Below the pieces are notes generated by a model. It was not told where the DNA came from. It did no database searches and saw only the letters and a program-made list of their open reading frames with translations. This document shows, piece by piece, positions 10,286 to 59,808 of a DNA stretch of 64,000 nt; position 1 is the stretch's first letter, and each line of letters begins with the position of its first letter. The stretch lies in the NCBI GenBank assembly GCA_951406725.2, contig OX597816.1, forward strand, positions 122,140,001 to 122,204,000, written 5' to 3'. A program made the translations under genes and the position numbers. This stretch comes from Octopus vulgaris. Its lineage: Eukaryota.

Positions 10286-10324
<39 letters not shown>

Positions 10325-10439
10325 TAAAAAGAATTCCAACCTTGTCTGATTTTCACGTTTTATTTACAATCTTATAATGATATATTATAATTGAATAAAA
10401 TAAAATGAAATAGTAGAATGTTAAATATTCATTCTGATT

Positions 10440-10482
10440 GAACTAGTACTTTCATGCATTGAATTCTGCAATCTTCGGGTTC
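10440..10482 (-). ncRNA. Minimal hammerhead ribozyme motif, left arm
   Basis: Exact mirror of 12331-12373. Confidence 0.7.
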
Positions 10483-10977
10483 ATGTAGTAGTGTTGACAG
10501 TCATGCTTCACAATTTTTGACTGTAGCAAGATGAGTGATTCTGTGCTATAAATACAGCTGGGTAGGCTCCAGAGTGCTAGGTTTTGCAAACTGTATTCTG
10601 ACCAATCAGTGTGTAGTATCACTCAATTACTTAAGCTGATTGGTTGGTTGAGCTGATTGGTTTAGGCATCACGCTTTGTTGGACAGGTCAAGAGTCCTGT
10701 ATCTTGACCCTGGCCGAAGCAGCAATTGTTGGGTTATTTTTAGAAATGTTGTAAATATCCTTTGTCAGAGATTTTTATATTTTTATATTTCAATTGTCAT
10801 CATCATCATTGTCAGCACCTTAATTATTGTTGCTAGTGGTGATGGTGGTGGCAATAGAACTTTTAACCCTAAATAAGATAATTTTCCTGCTATCTTCGTC
10901 TTGATCACCTTTAGTATTGTTGTTGTTGTTAGTGGTCATGGTCGTAGCAGTGGAAGTAATACCTCTAAGTATTATTA

Positions 10978-11425
10978 TTATTGCTTATTTAGCTTGGGTT
11001 CGAATTTATCAATAAAATTCTTTTCTCTGATTTTCCTCTCGATTTCACTTGGGCTGTGTAATTTATAGAATGGAAATATTATATATATTTTCCGACCACA
11101 TGTTGCTAGGTGGTTACTCAAAGGTATCTGACGGACCTCTGGGTCTCTAATCTGTTGCCGGTGTACACGTGAGCGTTCTAATAGTGCGTTTCCCGTCTGA
11201 CCTACATATATTTCTTCACAATTTGGGCATTTGATGCAGTAAATTAAATTTCTGCTTTTGCAGTTCATATTCGCGTTTGTGAATATTTTCCCGGTTTTTG
11301 TGTTTATATATTGACCGGTATGTATGAATTGGCATGTGCCACATCGGCTATCATTGCATTTAGATACCGTGAATGTTTGGTCTTTGTTGCTGAGGTCAAA
11401 TTTTGCCGTTTTCATGTTTTCAGCA
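10978..11425 (-). CDS. PLE GIY-YIG endonuclease domain with Cys-rich linker (5'-truncated, left arm)
   Basis: KTAKFDLSNKDQTFTVSKCNDSRCGTC...NCKSRNLIYCIKCPNCEEIYVGQT...ERSRVHRQQI...REKNFIDKFEPKLN. Shows LIY-CxxC-YVG, conserved R, H, E and N, and a Neptune-like Cys linker. Confidence 0.85.
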
Positions 11426-11835
11426 ACAAAGACCAAACATTCACGGTATCTAAATGCAATGATAGCCGATGTGGCACATGCCAATTCATACATACCGGTC
11501 AATATATAAACACAAAAACCGGGAAAATATTCACAAACGCGAATATGAACTGCAAAAGCAGAAATTTAATTTACTGCATCAAATGCCCAAATTGTGAAGA
11601 AATATATGTAGGTCAGACGGGAAACGCACTATTAGAACGCTCACGTGTACACCGGCAACAGATTAGAGACCCAGAGGTCCGTCAGATACCTTTGAGTAAC
11701 CACCTAGCAACATGTGGTCGGAAAATATATATAATATTTCCATTCTATAAATTACACAGCCCAAGTGAAATCGAGAGGAAAATCAGAGAAAAGAATTTTA
11801 TTGATAAATTCGAACCCAAGCTAAATAAGCAATAA
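11420..11835 (+). CDS. PLE GIY-YIG endonuclease domain (right arm, identical copy)
   Basis: Same protein as the left arm. The N-terminal residues of track ORF 11311-11835 are only antisense read-through of the other arm. Confidence 0.85.
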
Positions 11836-12152
11836 TAATAATACTTAGAGGTATTACTTCCACTGCTACGACCATGACCACTAACAACAACAACAATACT
11901 AAAGGTGATCAAGACGAAGATAGCAGGAAAATTATCTTATTTAGGGTTAAAAGTTCTATTGCCACCACCATCACCACTAGCAACAATAATTAAGGTGCTG
12001 ACAATGATGATGATGACAATTGAAATATAAAAATATAAAAATCTCTGACAAAGGATATTTACAACATTTCTAAAAATAACCCAACAATTGCTGCTTCGGC
12101 CAGGGTCAAGATACAGGACTCTTGACCTGTCCAACAAAGCGTGATGCCTAAA

Positions 12153-12266
12153 CCAATCAGCTCAACCAACCAATCAGCTTAAGTAATTGAGTGATACTAC
12201 ACACTGATTGGTCAGAATACAGTTTGCAAAACCTAGCACTCTGGAGCCTACCCAGCTGTATTTATA
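12153..12266 (+). promoter_or_regulatory. Putative pLTR promoter: three CCAAT boxes and a TATA-like box (mirrored at about 10547-10660)
   Basis: CCAAT at 12153 and 12170, ATTGG at 12207 and TATTTATA at 12259, about 65 nt upstream of the HHR. AATAAA at about 12449. Confidence 0.45.
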
Positions 12267-12330
12267 GCACAGAATCACTCATCTTGCTACAGTCAAAAAT
12301 TGTGAAGCATGACTGTCAACACTACTACAT

Positions 12331-12373
12331 GAACCCGAAGATTGCAGAATTCAATGCATGAAAGTACTAGTTC
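12331..12373 (+). ncRNA. Minimal hammerhead ribozyme motif, right arm
   Basis: gaac-CCGAAGA-ttgca-gaattcaa-tgcat-GAAA-gtac-TA-gttc. Stem I is gaac/gttc, loop III is the palindrome AGTACT, and the core has a U4>C change. Confidence 0.7.
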
Positions 12374-12520
12374 AATCAGAATGAATATTTAACATTCTAC
12401 TATTTCATTTTATTTTACTCAATTATAATATATCATTATAAGATTGTAAATAAAACGTGAAAATCAGACAAGGTTGGAATTCTTTTATTAATATATTCTT
12501 CTATACACAATCACACACAC

Positions 12521-12554
<34 letters not shown>

Positions 12555-35673: not shown

Positions 35674-35745
35674 AGTTCTATGGTGTAAATAGCTAGCACC
35701 CTGGATTTGAAACCAGGAATCCGAGTTCAAACTTCGGTAGAATTT
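35674..35745 (+). tRNA. tRNA-Gln(TTG)-like sequence, probably a pseudogene
   Basis: AGTTCTATGGTGTAAATAGCTAGCACCCTGGATTTGAAACCAGGAATCCGAGTTCAAACTTCGGTAGAATT aligns with metazoan tRNA-Gln. The acceptor stem pairs 7/7 (one G-U). D loop GG is lost and the anticodon loop is irregular. Confidence 0.7.
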
Positions 35746-47806: not shown

Positions 47807-47851
<45 letters not shown>

Positions 47852-47927
47852 ATAAGATCGATATTTAAATACCGATATTATCAGTTGGCCATATATAGGA
47901 ATAAAAAAACTTTCAAAAGTAATAATT

Positions 47928-48149
47928 ATTTAAAATTATAATTAAGGGTATCTAAGAGTATATATATATATATATATATTATACCACCACGATATGAAAA
48001 TAGCAGTCGAAACCTGACATAGGAATAAAACCACATTAAATGTTCATATATCACTAGGCTGTGATATAATGTGGTTTAATGTGGTTTTAGAGTCAAGTTT
48101 CGACTGCTATTTTCAGCGTGGTGGTATCTCTTAGACACCCTAAATTATA

Positions 48150-48153
<4 letters not shown>
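47928..48153. repeat. Short foldback between (TA)n tracts
   Basis: ataccaccacg..tgaaaatagcagtcgaaac and taaaaccacattaaa are mirrored at 48075-48127. Confidence 0.8.
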
Positions 48154-49135: not shown

Positions 49136-49174
49136 GTAAATTGATCAAAATAAAAACATGATGCCAAGGATTCA

Positions 49175-49252
49175 GCGGTACATATGTTTCGGGCCTTTAT
49201 TAGACAGATTTATAACAATGCATAATGTATGTCTGTGGCCTTCTTCAGCCGC
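49175..49252 (-). ncRNA. Type I hammerhead ribozyme, left arm
   Basis: Exact mirror of 50689-50766. Confidence 0.8.
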
Positions 49253-50688
49253 GCACAACAACTTCCACAAGGACATGTGTTACATCAAAAATTCTTGGTT
49301 GGGGATGCAAATCCTCTCATTCGCGTACGACATAATGCGGCAGCAGCATAGAATTGAAGCGTCCATCTCGTTCTTCTCTCAATGTAGAATGAGGGAATTT
49401 AGATGTTGAAGTAATGTAAATAAGTTAACAAATAAATACATATATAGACGTGAAGGGACCTGGTGATAAGAGTAAATAGGGGTAAAGATGGAGGGGCGAG
49501 AATTCAGGACGAAGGATAAAAATATATATAAAAAGTGTAAGTATAGAAAAATGTAAAAGTGTAGAGTATAAAGATATAAAGAGATATAAGGAGATATAAG
49601 GGGGTATAAAGAATATAAAAAAATATAAATGAATATAAAGGTATCAAGTTATAAAGTAAAAATAGAAATAGAAATAAAAATAAAAATAAAAGCAAAAAAA
49701 TAAAAATAGGAATAAAAATACGAATAAAAAAAAAATATATATATATATATAAGGATAAGGGATGTATAGTGGTTACGGACCGAACATGGTGGTCAGGAAA
49801 ATGACAAAATCCAGTTGTAGAATCAACAGGGGCGTCTGGGGACTTAGTGTGTTGTAAATCAGATCTGTTGAGAGGTTAATCTAGTTCCTTGAGTTAATTG
49901 GTCATCTTGTACATACATACCAGCATGGATACATACACCCATATACACGCGCACATATACGCACGCATACACAGCTCCAAGCATATAAGCATACATACGT
50001 ACTCACGTGTAAACATATACAGAAACTCATATACACCCACACACATGCGCATGTATACATACATACAACAGAATATGCGTATATATACCCGGACATTATC
50101 CGTGTACATATACATATATACATGTGTGTGTGTGTATATATGACCACCATGTTCGGTCCGTAACCACTATACATCCCTTATCCTTATATATTTTTATTAT
50201 TTTTTTAAAATTATTTTTATTCGTATTTTTATTCGTATTTTTATTTTTTTGCTTTTATTTTTATTTTTATTTCTATTTCTATTTTTACTTTATAACTTGA
50301 TACCTTTATATTCATTTATATTTTTATATTCTTTATACCCCCTTATATCTCCTTATATCTCTTTATATCTTTATACTCTACACTTTTACATTTTTCTATA
50401 CTTACACTTTTTATATATATTTTTATCCTTCGTCCTGAATTCTCGCCCTCCATCTTTACCCCTATTTACTCTTATCACCAGGTCCCTTCACGTCTATATA
50501 TGTATTTATTTGTTAATTTATTTACATTACTTCAACATCTAAATTCCCTCATTCTACATTGAGAGAAGAACGAGATGGACGCTTCAATTCTATGCTGCTG
50601 CCGCATTATGTCGTACGCGAATGAGAGGATTTGCATCCCCAACCAAGAATTTTTGATGTAACACATGTCCTTGTGGAAGTTGTTGTGC

Positions 50689-50766
50689 GCGGCTGAAGAA
50701 GGCCACAGACATACATTATGCATTGTTATAAATCTGTCTAATAAAGGCCCGAAACATATGTACCGC
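50689..50766 (+). ncRNA. Type I hammerhead ribozyme, right arm
   Basis: gcgg-CTGAAGA-aggcc.agac...gtct.ggccc-GAAAC-atat-GTA-ccgc, palindrome ACATATGT. Confidence 0.8.
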
Positions 50767-50887
50767 TGAATCCTTGGCATCATGTTTTTATTTTGATCAA
50801 TTTACTCTTCCACCTACACCACCAAACGGTATATACAGGTGCTTACAATTATCAAGTACTCACCCCGAATTTCTATATATATATATG

Positions 50888-50976
<89 letters not shown>

Positions 50977-51164
50977 TAAGCAATAAAGGGTTTAGCAACG
51001 AATTGCCTTACCACATACCGAATTTAGAAATAGCAGTCAAAGAGTTATAGCTATTTCTTCTACTAAAAAGGGAGATCTCAGTAAAAAACACAGCAATTGG
51101 AAGGCAGACACAAACAGGTAAGAGAGAATGAATTGACGGCAATCTATCATACAATTTTAAATTA

Positions 51165-51264
51165 TCTACGGACGCACGTTTCGAAATCAAGTTTTTAGGA
51201 AAGCATGAGAATTAAATATTAAATAATTCTACGTTACCCAAACTTCTTTTCTCTTCAGCGTAGA
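51165..51264 (-). ncRNA. Type I hammerhead ribozyme, copy 1
   Basis: Reverse complement: tctacg-CTGAAGA-gaaa[long stem II]tttc-GAAAC-gtgc-GTC-cgtaga. Confidence 0.85.
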
Positions 51265-51544
51265 ATACTATAATCATAAGTGATTATATATTGAATTTTG
51301 AGATACTAGAAGGCACCAACTCAACTCAGTATCAGAGCGAGCTAGAATCCGCAACTAGTATCACCAAACTCAACGTGTGAATGAAAGGATTGTGTCACCA
51401 GCCCCTTCCCACCCGCGTGTAGCCAAAACAAGATGATATGGTCATCTACTGAGATAAAATATGGTTATCCGTAATAATGAAGGGTGAAATTAATTAATTT
51501 GGAATAATTATCTTGACGGCAATCTATCATACAATTTTAAGTTA

Positions 51545-51644
51545 TCTACGGACGCACGTTTCGAAATCAAGTTTTTAGGAAAGCATGAGAATTAAATATT
51601 AAATAATTCTACGTTACCCAAACTTCTTTTCTCTTCAGCGTAGA
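51545..51644 (-). ncRNA. Type I hammerhead ribozyme, copy 2
   Basis: Same motif as copy 1. Confidence 0.85.
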
Positions 51645-52140
51645 ATACTATAATCATAAGTGATTATATATTGAATTTTGAGATACTAGAAGGCACCAAC
51701 TCAACTCAGTATCAGAGCGAGCTAGAATTCGCAACTAGTATCACCAAACTCAACGTGTGAATGAAAGGATTGTGTCACCAGCCCCTTCCCACCCGCGTGT
51801 AGCCAAAACAAGATGCTATGGTCATCTACTGAGATAAAATATGGTTATCCGTAATAATGAAGGGTGAAATTAATTAATTTGGAATAATTATCAATTACAC
51901 CAAGTAGTCTTCGGCATGTAAAAGCCTCATTCGAGGAAAATTTAAGTAATACTAAGCAATAAAGGGTTTAGCAACGAATTGCCTTACCACATACCGAATT
52001 TAGAAATAGCAGTCAAAGAGTTATAGCTATTTCTTCTACTAAAAAGGGAGATCTCAGTAAAAAACACAGCAATTGGAAGGCAGACACAAACAGGTAAGAG
52101 AGAATGAATTGACGGCAATCTATCATACAATTTTAAGTTA

Positions 52141-52240
52141 TCTACGGACGCACGTTTCGAAATCAAGTTTTTAGGAAAGCATGAGAATGAAATATTAAAT
52201 AATTCTACGTTACCCAAACTTCTTTTCTCTTCAGCGTAGA
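52141..52240 (-). ncRNA. Type I hammerhead ribozyme, copy 3
   Basis: Same motif, with one substitution in distal stem II. Confidence 0.85.
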
Positions 52241-52327
52241 ATACTATAATCATAAGTGATTATATATTGAATTTTGAGATACTAGAAGGCACCAACTCAA
52301 CTCAGTATCAGAGCGAGCTAGAATCCG

Positions 52328-52417
<90 letters not shown>

Positions 52418-52492
52418 AAGCAAAGAAGCCAGTTTTAAATCTCTGAATGAGATCTAAGTAGTAAACATACTTCATAGTGAAATTTATTTGCC

Positions 52493-52621
52493 AACGTAAG
52501 GTGGCAGTCCTGCGTAGGACCATGTCTCTACCTTTTAATGCCAGGCAAACAGCTGGAAAATATATTTTCCTGGGTTTAAAAGATAGTGACATGCTCCTAC
52601 GCAGGACTTCCACCTTACGTT
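52493..52621. repeat. Foldback repeat, same family as 35846-36092
   Basis: aacgtaaggtggcagtcctgcgtagga mirrored as tcctacgcaggacttccaccttacgtt. Confidence 0.85.
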
Positions 52622-52638
52622 GACATTTAGATTTTACG

Positions 52639-52719
<81 letters not shown>

Positions 52720-53129: not shown

Positions 53130-53690
53130 ACATGGAGGACTGGAAACTATCTGAATACTAGGAAAGAGTTAATTTTACCATAATGATTCGCACCGGGTAT
53201 CAAAATACCGACATCATGACTGTTGCTCAGTGCTCTGTGAACACTATAAAGGCTGTAAGATGTGACAAGAACAGCTGCAACGGAGACTACGAAGCTGTGG
53301 CTAGCAGGAAGGACACAGCAGGTGTTCTGATTGCGTTTGACTCTGGAATTCAACCAACAATTGATGAACTATGCCTTAGTCTCAATTCAGACGGTTATGT
53401 GAAGCTACTGGAGGCCGTGGTTAAACCCCGACTGAAGAGGGTTGCTACAGGAAGGTCATATATGCGGCAGCAGGATTCGGCTCCTAGCTATACCACCAGA
53501 AAGAGTCAGAAGTGTTTGTCGCAGAATTTCTACTTCACCGGTCCCAATTTCTGGCGTCTTAATTCCCCCAAATGTAATCATATGGATTACTATGTATGGG
53601 GAGCTGTTGAGAAAGACGTCTGCTATATGACATCACAACCCATGCCAACATCACCACAAACACCTTGTAAACATCGTCACTATATAATAT
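53130..53690 (+). pseudogene. maT (DD37D-like) transposase remnant, internally deleted
   Basis: YVKLLEAVVKP...QQDSAPSYT...WRLNSPKCNHMDYYVWGAVEK, with 36 residues between the last two Asp in this copy. Confidence 0.78.
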
Positions 53691-54422
53691 AAGAAATATT
53701 TTTAGATGCAGTTTTGTCAGGGCCAAAGAGACTGCAAGAGAATGTTTCTGTTAGCATATACCATATGTATTTTTCTGTCAGAGCCAAAGAGACTACAAGA
53801 GAATGTCTCTGTTAGCATATGCCATTTGTATTTTTCTGTTTCTTACTGAATGTCAGATGTGAATATATAAACGGAGTGTAATAAAATAATAACAAACCAA
53901 CGTCAATGTTTAATTCTTCTCATAAGGATTTCACAACTGAAGTATGCTGTATTGCACCATTCTCTCTGAGACTAGTTTTGATTTACTTACATCACTTTTT
54001 ATTGTCATTTTAAAACACAAAATTTGCTTTTATTTTGCTTCCATTTTCATATTATAAATTTGATAAACATAAACTTACCAAACGTATTAGTGTTAGACAC
54101 ACGCACACATACACACGCACACTCCGACAAACGCAGGCGCACGTGGATACACACAGACACAATGTGTGTGCATCTTAACATTTATATAATAAAATATACT
54201 CAATCATACTTATGTGTATAAGTTCATACATTTTTACATATATAATTATATGCATTCATATAGAAAGGTGCACATATATACAATCATACTGATAAATATA
54301 AATATCATAACAAAAATATTTACATTTCCAAATACATACATACATATACACCTACATACATACGTACATATATTTATATGTATGTATGTATGTATATGTA
54401 TATTATATATATATATATATAT

Positions 54423-57110: not shown

Positions 57111-59808
57111 TGTTGTTGGCATCCTTTTTGTCTCAGGAGACAATGGAGTTGCGCATAAAATAATCTAGTCCGGCTTTTACATTTCATGTCCTAATACATC
57201 TCCTGATGTGGATGTGTAGTCCTATCCTGGACAAACACTCCCTCCTGCAGGTGCCGCAAATGTAGCGAAGACTTTGTCATAGTTTCTTGTTGACGTATTT
57301 TCTTGTCTTTCCATTTCTTCTCTCTCTCTATGTCACTCCTTTGTGTTCCCTATTTTACGATACGTCGCCAATCTCCACGGTTGCTGGCAACTGCTTCCCA
57401 GTTGGTAATATTGATGTTGCAGGCATTCATGTCCCTTTTGTAAACATTCTTGTATCGTAAGAACGGCCTTCCCACAGCCCTAGTGCCCCTAGCAAGCTCT
57501 CCGTTGAGTATGTCCTTGGGGATCCTGCCATCTTCCTTACGGCTAACATGTCCAAGCCATCTCATACATCTTTGTGTGAGGAGTGCAAACATGCTTGGTA
57601 TTCCTGCTTGCTTGAGGACATCTTTGTTGGGGACATGATTCTGCCATTTGATGCGAAGGATTTTCCGGAGGCAGCGCAGGTGAAAGATATTTAGGCGACG
57701 TATGGCGTCGTATGGCGTGTGTACGGCGTCCAAGTCTCACTTCCATACAGTAGAGTGCTAAGTACACACGCCTGGAACATCTTCATTTTTGTGGTCTTGG
57801 TCAGCTTATTGTTGTCCCATGTCCGTTTGGAGAGTTGGGCCATCACAGTAGCTGCCTTGCCAATGCGTATATTGAGCTGAGCATCAAGGGATAGGTTGTA
57901 GGTGACGGTAGAACCAAGATAAGTAAACTTCTCCACCTCCTGTAGTCTGTGGTTTCCAATATGTATGTTTGGGATGTCCGATGTAGCCTGACCCATGATG
58001 TTGGTATTCTTGAGGCTGATAATTAAGCCAAAGTTGCCACATGTTTGCTCAAAACAGTTGATGAGCCTTTGTAGGGCTTCTTCTGTGTGTGATACCAGAG
58101 CGGCATCATCAGCAAATAGCATCTCCTTAATCAGGACGCTTCTGATTTTGGTCTTGGCATGCAGACACGAGAGATTGAACAGTTTCCCATCACTTCTACT
58201 GTGCAGAAACACTCCATCATCTGATGTCTCAAAGGCATGTGACAGCAGCAGCGAGAGGAATATTCCAAATAATGTAGGAGCAAGGACACAACCTTGCTTT
58301 ACCCCGTTTTTTTATTTGGAAGGCGGCTGATGTTGAACCATTGTGCTGTATGGTGCCTTGCATATCATCATGGAAAGATTTGATGATCCTCAGTAGCTTT
58401 GCTGGACATTCGATTTTTTGGAGCAGAATGAAGAGGCCTTTTCTACTTACCAAGTCAAAGGCCTTTGTCAGATCAATGAAAGCTATATATAATGGCATTT
58501 TCTGCTCTCTGGACTTCTCCTAAAGTTGGCGCATGGAGAATATCATGTCAGTAGTTGATCTGCTTCTTCTAAAGCCAGGCTGCGATTCTGGATAAATTGA
58601 AGAAGCAAGCAGTTGTAGCCTGGACAGGATAATGCGAGCAAATGCCTTTCCAACAGTGTTTAGAAGAGATATTCCACGGTAATTGTTACAATCACCACGG
58701 TCACCTTTGTTTTTTTTTAAAGCGTAATGATGTTAGCATCCCGCATATCCTGAGGGACTGTACCCTCTTTCCAGCACTGACACAGAAGCTCATGAAGGTG
58801 CCGAAGCAGGATGGTGTTTTTGCCGGTTTTGATAATCTCTAAGGGGATGCCATCTTTTCCCGGAGCCTTGTTACTTGCTAGGAAGTCAATAGCCTCGGTG
58901 AGCTCTGCTATAGATGGCAGACTGTCAAGTTCGCACATGACTGACAAGATCTTGAGACCCTCGATTGCAGCCTCAGCTACCGTGGTCTCCCGTGAGTAGA
59001 GATCCTGGTAGTACTCCATCCATCTATCCATTTGATTGCTTTGGTCCTTGATGATATCTGTAGTAGTTGATTTCAGAGGGGCTGACTTGGTTGCGGATGG
59101 ACCAAGGGCCTTCTTTAAACCGGTATACATCCCACGGGTATCGCCACTGTCAGCAGCTGACTGGATACTCAGACAGATTTCCTGCCAATACCTATTTGCA
59201 CAGCGTCTGGCAGTCAGTTGGGTTTTATTTCTTGCCTTTCTGAGTTCTTCGAGTGACTTTGTATAAGAATCACTCTTGTATTGCATCAGTGCTGCACGCT
59301 TTGCTTTGATAACTGTTTCCAGCTCTGACAGCCCAGCATTGAACCAATCTGGGTTTTGCTTTTCTCTCATGCCGAAAGTATCTATTGATGTGGTATACAA
59401 AGCTTCCCTGATATAATTCCACCTACTTTCAGTAGAGAAGGTTGGCAGCTACTGAGAGCAACCTTGATAGAAACAGCAAAACATTGTCGCAGTGTAGGGT
59501 CCGATGTTCTGGCAGTGTTAATGCGTGGTCGGCCCATTTTCTTGGAGTGATGGACTTTTTTAGGCAGAACCCTCACCATGTTCTTTATTAGTGAATGATC
59601 TGTGTCACAATCCGCGCTGTGGTAACTACGGGTCAGTTGAACAGAATTCAGAAAGGATCTTCGTGTAATGATGAGATCCAGCTGATGCCAGTGGTGAGAT
59701 CTTGGATGTCTTCAAGATGCCTTGTGGGATGTCTTGTTGGCAAATAATGTGTTAGTGATGCACAGGTTATGGTATGTGCAAAATTCAAGTAGTCTCTAGC
59801 CATTGTAA
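57111..59808 (-). mobile_element. RTE (BovB-like) LINE, 5'-truncated and frameshifted
   Basis: ORF pieces NKAPGKDGIP, AFIDLTKAFDLVSR, EMLFADDAAL, FTYLGS, LLYGSETW and WLGHVSR. (CAA)n tail at about 57111. Confidence 0.93.

What the first reader, a model, noticed from the sequence alone, without database searches (positions are those of the whole stretch)
50975..52330. Circularly permuted 596-nt tandem array with three long-stem-II hammerheads
Seen: HHRs spaced 596 and 380 bp apart. The array starts and ends at different points of the monomer, and the 380-bp unit arises from a jump at 51512/51513 that skips 216 bp. Copies are near-identical, with (TA)n on both sides. Inference: more than two rounds of reverse transcription around a circular or multimeric RNA with one template jump. 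The monomer is longer than the typical animal retrozymes I recall.
Basis: partly seen in the sequence, partly recalled or inferred. Interest (0 to 1): 0.78.

Follow-up and report, generated by a model that had tools for sequence, protein, structure and literature searches.

The report
Ribozyme repeat copied by Penelope machinery
This is one copy of a young, non-coding 596-base repeat with a predicted self-cutting RNA motif, and its many genomic copies end at the same two fixed points inside TA runs, so it was likely pasted by a Penelope-like jumping gene's enzyme, probably reading round a circular RNA.

Summary
In detail: three type I hammerhead motifs (minus strand) 380 and 596 bp apart, a locus-unique 216-bp skip, (TA)n on both sides. 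It is not a local duplication: the exact ribozyme core occurs 275 times in the genome, a sister core 795 times. The "random permutation" reading needs correcting. In 56 loci taken in genome order, 3' ends sit at two fixed sites about 200 and 300 nt past the predicted cut (26 of 30 single-orientation copies), 5' ends are scattered, and 18 of 19 classifiable inverted copies use one site per arm. That is the published Penelope-like (PLE) two-site priming and "tail" signature, here about 100 nt. Units within an array share one haplotype (334 of 335 checks), which favours one template read repeatedly, likely a circle; a few arrays fit a linear multimer better. No homologous autonomous PLE and no usable RNA evidence were found. 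596 nt lies within published retrozyme sizes. Verdict: a non-LTR retrozyme with unusually direct genomic evidence of PLE mobilisation. The scan noted related PLE-end and tandem cases in other genomes.

The parts
50874..50975 (.). (TA)n target run, left; shared with a neighbouring inverted element
   Evidence: sequence
50973..52330 (-). whole insertion, r413-596 / r1-596 / r1-38 // r255-596 / r1-198 (50973-50975 overlap the TA run)
50973..51170 (-). 3' end segment r1-198; ends at site S1, the commonest end of the family (inferred priming end)
   Evidence: 30 of 82 outer ends exactly at r198
51166..51263 (-). type I hammerhead 1, predicted cut 51171|51170
51512..51513 (-). jump r255 to r38, skipping 216 nt including S1 and most of the conserved domain; unique in the genome
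51546..51643 (-). type I hammerhead 2, predicted cut 51551|51550
51551..52146 (-). complete 596-nt unit, cut to cut; non-coding (longest ATG frame 37 aa), 35% GC, predicted rod-like fold z = -6.3
51836..52050 (-). conserved structured domain r97-311, shared with sister families at 67-92% identity; holds both end sites
51940..51959 (-). site S1 (r188-207) in the complete unit, predicted single-stranded, AU-rich
51834..51857 (-). site S2 (r290-313) in the complete unit, predicted single-stranded, AU-rich
52142..52239 (-). type I hammerhead 3, predicted cut 52147|52146
52330..52418 (.). (TA)n run, right; 5'-truncated end of the insertion at r413

Best explanation
The array is one insertion of a young, non-coding, hammerhead-bearing 596-nt tandem unit (a non-LTR retrozyme) that is likely mobilised in trans by a Penelope-like RT-endonuclease, which would nick (TA)n and start copying at one of two fixed internal sites of the RNA, probably on a circular monomer. 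Shown: family, fixed ends, TA flanks, inverted copies with one site per arm, one haplotype per array. Inferred steps: (1) a tandem locus is transcribed on the hammerhead strand; (2) paired hammerheads (self-complementary loop III) cut out a monomer that is ligated to a circle; (3) the PLE protein binds the conserved r97-311 domain and primes at S1 (about r198, mostly) or S2 (about r293-308), using 2-4 nt of TA-like microhomology; (4) RT runs through the ribozyme junction one to five times and stops at a random point; (5) if both target strands prime, one from S1 and one from S2, a head-to-head inverted copy with a tail of about 100 nt results. In this locus RT started at S1, ran about 2.6 rounds and lost 216 nt once. 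I put PLE-type two-site priming at about 0.9 and the circular template at about 0.6.
For: Ends: in 56 loci (all loci of the first 100 of 275 exact core matches, contigs C1-C5) 26 of 30 single-orientation copies end at S1 (22) or S2 (4), against 7% of the unit by chance, p = 8e-26; 2 of 30 5' ends do. All 26 inverted copies have 3' ends outward; of 19 with both ends at a site, 18 are S1+S2. In 40 further loci incl. subfamilies at 80-99%: 14 of 14 single copies end at S1/S2, 20 of 21 classifiable inverted ones are S1+S2. 53 of 56 have (TA)4+ within 30 nt on at least one side (counted; no genome-wide control). An autonomous PLE of the same genome shows the same two-end pattern, 32 nt apart, and purified Poseidon protein primes at two internal sites and extends both strands (PMC11167929). 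In 9 of 35 two-arm copies neither arm is contained in the other, so the arms were templated separately. One template: 334 of 335 site-by-array checks concordant, about 156 discordant expected from a mixed pool; 15 locus-private variants in every unit of 12 arrays, 8 spanning both arms. RT crosses the cut site 230 times and about 4 of 186 arm ends stop near it, about 2 expected. Hammerhead: 9 of 26 pairs change on both sides, 0 of 500 shuffles reach the score, slid controls collapse; loop III stays self-complementary in three versions.
Against: No autonomous PLE with a homologous pLTR or domain was found among three large young families and about eight smaller ones, so the driver is unnamed. 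Seven variants are mixed within arrays; in three (L113, L257, L002) the terminal units of both arms share a base that an upstream unit lacks, as a linear multimer (or later gene conversion) would give. Private variants could come from unsampled or lost source loci (70 of roughly 150 loci examined). For Poseidon, uncut RNA was the main substrate and ribozyme cleavage was dispensable in vitro. The active hammerhead fold is 4.6 kcal/mol above the local minimum, and 8 of 9 frog retrozyme dimers did not cleave in vitro. The covariation rests on about three related subfamilies, not 11 independent events; in the conserved domain only 2 of 22 pairs change on both sides.
Confidence: 0.7

Rival explanations
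1. Same PLE two-site priming, but the template is an uncut linear multimeric transcript of a tandem source locus; the hammerhead is weak or idle and no circle is needed.
For: Mixed variants shared by the terminal units of both arms in L113, L257, L002, and runs of variant units in L255, L028; hammerhead cleavage dispensable for Poseidon insertion; no pile-up of ends at the cut site.
Against: Arms cross up to 5 junctions while no long master array appears among the first 100 matches of either core; truncation alone would shorten arrays each generation; 15 private variants present in all units need a monomer-to-multimer step somewhere, and their spectrum differs from single-unit changes (A>G/T>C 11 of 21 against 16 of 71, p = 0.01, post hoc).
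Confidence: 0.22
2. The unit is simply the terminal repeat (pLTR) of an autonomous PLE, and the arrays are its truncated ends.
For: End signature identical to PLEs; other windows of this scan resolved this way.
Against: Copies long enough run head-to-tail into the next unit, never into an ORF; tblastn with PLE proteins found no ORF continuous with the unit in the loci tested; sister families also have 556-562-nt non-coding periods.
Confidence: 0.05
3. Local DNA-level tandem duplication (satellite growth, unequal crossover) or mis-assembly made the array.
For: Homogeneity within arrays can also come from local duplication and conversion; the 216-bp skip is unique and not bridged by any laid contig.
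Against: About 150 dispersed loci with fixed 3' ends, TA flanks and S1+S2 inverted arms that share private variants; units here differ by four private substitutions, which a collapsed assembly would not give.
Confidence: 0.03

Closest known systems
Animal non-LTR retrozymes (Cervera and de la Pena 2020, PMC7229834; Li, Clavereau and Pollet 2026, bioRxiv 10.64898/2026.07.22.740005)
   Same: Short tandem arrays, one type I hammerhead per unit with 2-bp stem III and self-complementary loop, no ORF, low GC, highly self-paired predicted circle, PLEs present in the same genome.
   Different: 596 nt (above the 150-450 bp of the 2020 paper, inside the 51-972 bp of the 2026 preprint); 69-nt stem II region; (TA)n targeting; the parts of these papers that I read report no fixed priming sites, inverted arms or tail, and leave the mobilising mechanism open; circRNA not shown here.
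Endonuclease-bearing PLE insertions with inverted pLTR and tail (Arkhipova 2013, PMC3846280; Craig 2021, PMC8557442; Frangieh 2024, PMC11167929)
   Same: Two internal end sites downstream of the hammerhead, 5' truncation, head-to-head inverted copy, AT-rich/(TA)n targets as in Neptune and Naiad clades.
   Different: No RT or GIY-YIG ORF; tail about 100 nt rather than 30-40; ends show 2-4 nt TA-like microhomology, whereas Poseidon primed at non-homologous AC-rich sites; no matching autonomous pLTR found.
Minimal PLE hammerheads (Cervera and de la Pena 2014, PMC4209133)
   Same: 5-6-bp stem I, G-C base of stem II, palindromic loop III suited to dimeric cleavage.
   Different: Stem II region of 52-76 nt with several covarying helices instead of 7-8 bp.

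Membership tests
non-LTR retrozyme | tandem repeats each with a type I hammerhead | tested here: met
non-LTR retrozyme | no protein-coding capacity | tested here: met
   longest ATG frame 37 aa sense, 13 aa antisense; no PLE ORF continuous with the unit
non-LTR retrozyme | dispersed multi-copy family, GC under 50% | tested here: met
   275 + 795 exact cores; GC 35%
non-LTR retrozyme | no LTR, primer-binding site or polypurine tract | tested here: inconclusive
   array architecture shows no LTR-flanked body; PBS and PPT were not searched separately
non-LTR retrozyme | target-site duplication longer than 4 bp when present | tested here: inconclusive
   ends lie in (TA)n, which hides duplications
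non-LTR retrozyme | self-cleavage and accumulation as linear and circular monomer RNA | not testable with these tools
   only contigs of runs not on record as RNA were available
autonomous EN+ Penelope-like element | ORF with RT and GIY-YIG endonuclease between pLTRs | tested here: not met
PLE-type insertion signature (works like) | two fixed internal 3' end sites (tail) | tested here: met
PLE-type insertion signature (works like) | 5' truncation and head-to-head inverted copy | tested here: met
   26 of 56 loci inverted, all 3' ends outward
PLE-type insertion signature (works like) | terminal sequence homologous to the pLTR of a resident autonomous PLE | tested here: not met
   none among the families sampled; sampling is incomplete (150 of 6136, 18451 and 13090 candidates scored)
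plant LTR retrozyme | type III hammerhead in LTRs, 4-bp duplication | tested here: not met
   type I topology, tandem units

The most novel reading that the evidence does not exclude
These arrays are a genomic record of a PLE RT dimer priming both nicked strands of (TA)n from two fixed single-stranded sites on one circular RNA, telomerase-style inside a conserved folded domain. That would explain the inverted-repeat-plus-tail structure of PLEs in general, and would make these 556-596-nt circles an old, self-diversifying lineage (at least four families) that recruits PLE protein by RNA shape rather than by a copied pLTR.
Probability: 0.35. Interest if true: 0.75.

Novelty: new variant of a known kind. 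Interest (0 to 1): 0.52.

Why it matters
Which enzyme moves animal retrozymes, and whether the template is a circle, are stated as open in the papers read. This family carries the PLE two-site signature in about 150 very young copies and names the exact sites (r198, r293-308) and RNA domain to use in the existing in vitro PLE system, so both questions become directly testable. The one-site-per-arm rule (38 of 40) also offers a simple account of PLE inverted repeats and tails. The element class itself is known.

Tried and rejected
Rfam scan: no hammerhead family hit, one tRNA-like hit elsewhere. Search for the autonomous partner: GIY-YIG family search, 781-aa family, 775-aa family, about 1070-aa family, profile of the conserved domain over all loci held, walks through sister families B, E, C: no homologous pLTR; hits beside ORFs were separate insertions in shared TA runs. 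L147 looked like a partner end but has no ORF. Idea that the jump crosses a helix r35-40/r251-256: pairing probability 0, rejected. Idea that the 380-nt unit is a subfamily: 1 match, rejected. Idea that 5' ends pile up at the cut site: 13 apparent cases, 9 were alignment artefacts, rejected. Fold-back copying of the first cDNA as the sole source of inverted arms: fails for 9 of 35. A-to-I editing as source of private variants: A>G 5 of 21 against 5 of 71, p = 0.045 post hoc, T>C as frequent; not claimed. A possible intron (donor near r151, acceptor near r318) was noted by eye; no joint in contigs. Expression: no RNA holder listed; a 551-nt contig in X1 and a 709-nt contig in X15 span the junction but could be DNA; no evidence either way. 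Look-up of earlier scan notes by sequence and place found nothing.

Full report
1. Observation. The array at 50973-52330 is real in the sequence. Self-comparison gives offsets 380, 596 and 976 with 2-3 mismatches each. Three hammerhead cores lie on the minus strand at 51258, 51638 and 52234, each with a 6-bp stem I, 69 nt of stem II region, a 2-bp stem III and a GUC triplet. With r1 as the first base after the predicted cut, the insertion reads r413-596, r1-596, r1-38, then r255-596, r1-198, between two (TA)n runs. The jump skips 216 nt, has AATT near-microhomology with 2 nt lost, and is unique in the genome. Rfam does not detect the ribozyme, probably because of the long stem II (inference).

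2. Family. G000 is a 2.8-Gb genome. The 596-nt query gave 2011 candidates, 40 scored, 98-100% identical. The exact 25-nt core occurs 275 times and a sister core 795 times, controls 0. The first 100 matches fall in 56 loci, so about 150 loci is an extrapolation. Subfamilies at about 97% (594 nt) and 88% (583 nt) and more distant families B, C and E (67-80% over r97-301; periods 556-562 nt for C and E) share a conserved domain and the same end points. Across 11 hammerheads of subfamilies A and B, 9 of 26 pairs change on both sides, no shuffle reaches the score and slid controls fall from 95% to at most 46% paired; the sequences are related, so this is about three events per pair at most. Loop III is self-complementary in all three versions (duplex -8.8 to -13.3 kcal/mol), the design described for dimeric hammerheads (PMC4209133, passages). 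The circular monomer folds at z = -6.3 against 40 shuffles and has no ORF.

3. Ends are fixed, not permuted. In the 56 loci (two of them, L030 and L221, are near-duplicates), 30 are single-orientation: 22 end at S1 (r188-207), 4 at S2 (r290-313), 4 elsewhere; their 5' ends spread over r1-578 with 2 of 30 in S1/S2. The other 26 are head-to-head inversions with both 3' ends outward: 18 S1+S2, 1 S1+S1, 7 with one or both ends elsewhere. Forty further loci, partly chosen for several ribozymes and including subfamilies, gave 12 S1 and 2 S2 single copies and 20 S1+S2, 1 S2+S2, 5 with one other end; 38 of 40 against one half gives p = 7e-10. The exact ends (r192, 198, 202, 207; 293, 301, 308) are TA-like words, and both sites are predicted about 80% unpaired against 37% for the unit. 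A young autonomous PLE in this genome ends at two points 32 nt apart in the same way. Frangieh 2024 (PMC11167929, main text) showed that a purified PLE protein nicks AT-rich DNA on both strands and starts at two internal RNA sites that delimit the genomic tail; Craig 2021 (passages) and Arkhipova 2013 (passages) describe tail, inverted copy and (TA)n bias. So the family works like a PLE insertion.

4. Both arms come from RNA, one template per array. In 9 of 35 two-arm copies neither arm is contained in the other, which a fold-back copy of the first cDNA cannot give; two primings can. Of 75 loci, 5 were dropped (internal deletions, complex structure, duplicate); in the other 70, nine polymorphic sites are concordant within arrays in 334 of 335 checks, about 156 discordant expected if units were drawn from the pool; 15 variants private to one locus are in every unit of 12 arrays, 8 across both arms; 62 private variants are in one unit; 7 are mixed. 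Junctions are crossed 230 times and about 4 of 186 arm ends stop near the cut, so the template is continuous there: a circle or an uncut multimer. For the circle: private all-unit variants, arms with up to 5 junctions, no long master array among listed matches. For the multimer: three arrays whose terminal units on both arms share a base missing upstream, and dispensable cleavage in the Poseidon system.

5. Partner. None found. Three large young PLE families (781-aa, 775-aa, about 1070-aa ORFs; RT and GIY-YIG confirmed for the first two) and about eight smaller ones have other hammerheads and no similarity to the unit or its domain. Each search scored only 150 candidates, so this is not proof of absence.

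6. RNA. No listed run is on record as RNA; contigs span the junction but may be DNA. No conclusion.

7. Comparison with what is known. Cervera 2020 (PMC7229834, results and discussion) defines animal non-LTR retrozymes (150-450 bp), shows circles, and only proposes PLEs as driver. The 2026 preprint (introduction to discussion; supplements not seen) reports 51-972 bp units and pLTR relatedness and leaves the mechanism open. This family meets the sequence criteria of a retrozyme; cleavage and circles are untested. Six searches (listings only, apart from the papers named) showed no paper reporting two-site ends in a retrozyme or the one-site-per-arm rule for inverted PLE copies; the library lacks most subscription journals. 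Earlier notes of this scan describe PLE-end and tandem cases in other genomes.

8. Verdict. Observation confirmed, interpretation partly supported. A new variant of a known kind: a long-stem-II, (TA)n-targeted 596-nt retrozyme with a roughly 100-nt tail, whose copies give unusually direct genomic evidence for PLE-type, two-site priming and suggestive evidence for a circular template. Interest 0.52.

Noticed in passing
window 49136-50870: Adjacent inverted insertion of another family, arms 99-100% complementary, with its own hammerhead-like motif (+ strand 50689-50770, about 52-nt stem II region, palindromic loop) and a right arm about 65 nt longer than the left (tail); shares the TA run with the array.
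   Followed up: partly
window 10316-12542: 5'-truncated inverted copy (98%) of the young 775-aa PLE family, GIY-YIG end on both arms, one arm with the 32-nt tail.
   Followed up: yes
L064:768-4468, L220: The 781-aa and 775-aa PLE families have a long upstream frame (up to 479 aa) overlapping the RT-EN frame in another phase, though PLEs are described as single-ORF; frameshift or intron not resolved.
   Followed up: no
window 47850-48150; L065:1-120 and 1870-2080: Short inverted elements between TA runs sharing the motif of the conserved domain and a long/short arm pair; a further distant family.
   Followed up: partly
window 56707 (-) and 60842 (+); L038:45, L028, L027: Other hammerhead-like motifs, several with 44-54-nt stem II regions; long stem II seems common in this genome.
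   Followed up: no
window 52420-52645: Small inverted element between TA runs directly right of the array.
   Followed up: no
L329, L336, L313; L284, L286, L297: Sister retrozyme-like families C (560-562 nt, young, about 1545 candidates) and E (556-560 nt, variant hammerhead core, about 1757 candidates; L297 also has a 266-nt period).
   Followed up: partly
window 35674-35745: Weak tRNA match (34.9 bits), possibly a pseudogene or SINE head.
   Followed up: no
window 53162-53692 and 57350-59448: Decayed transposase-like and LINE-like reading frames, judged by eye from the translation.
   Followed up: no
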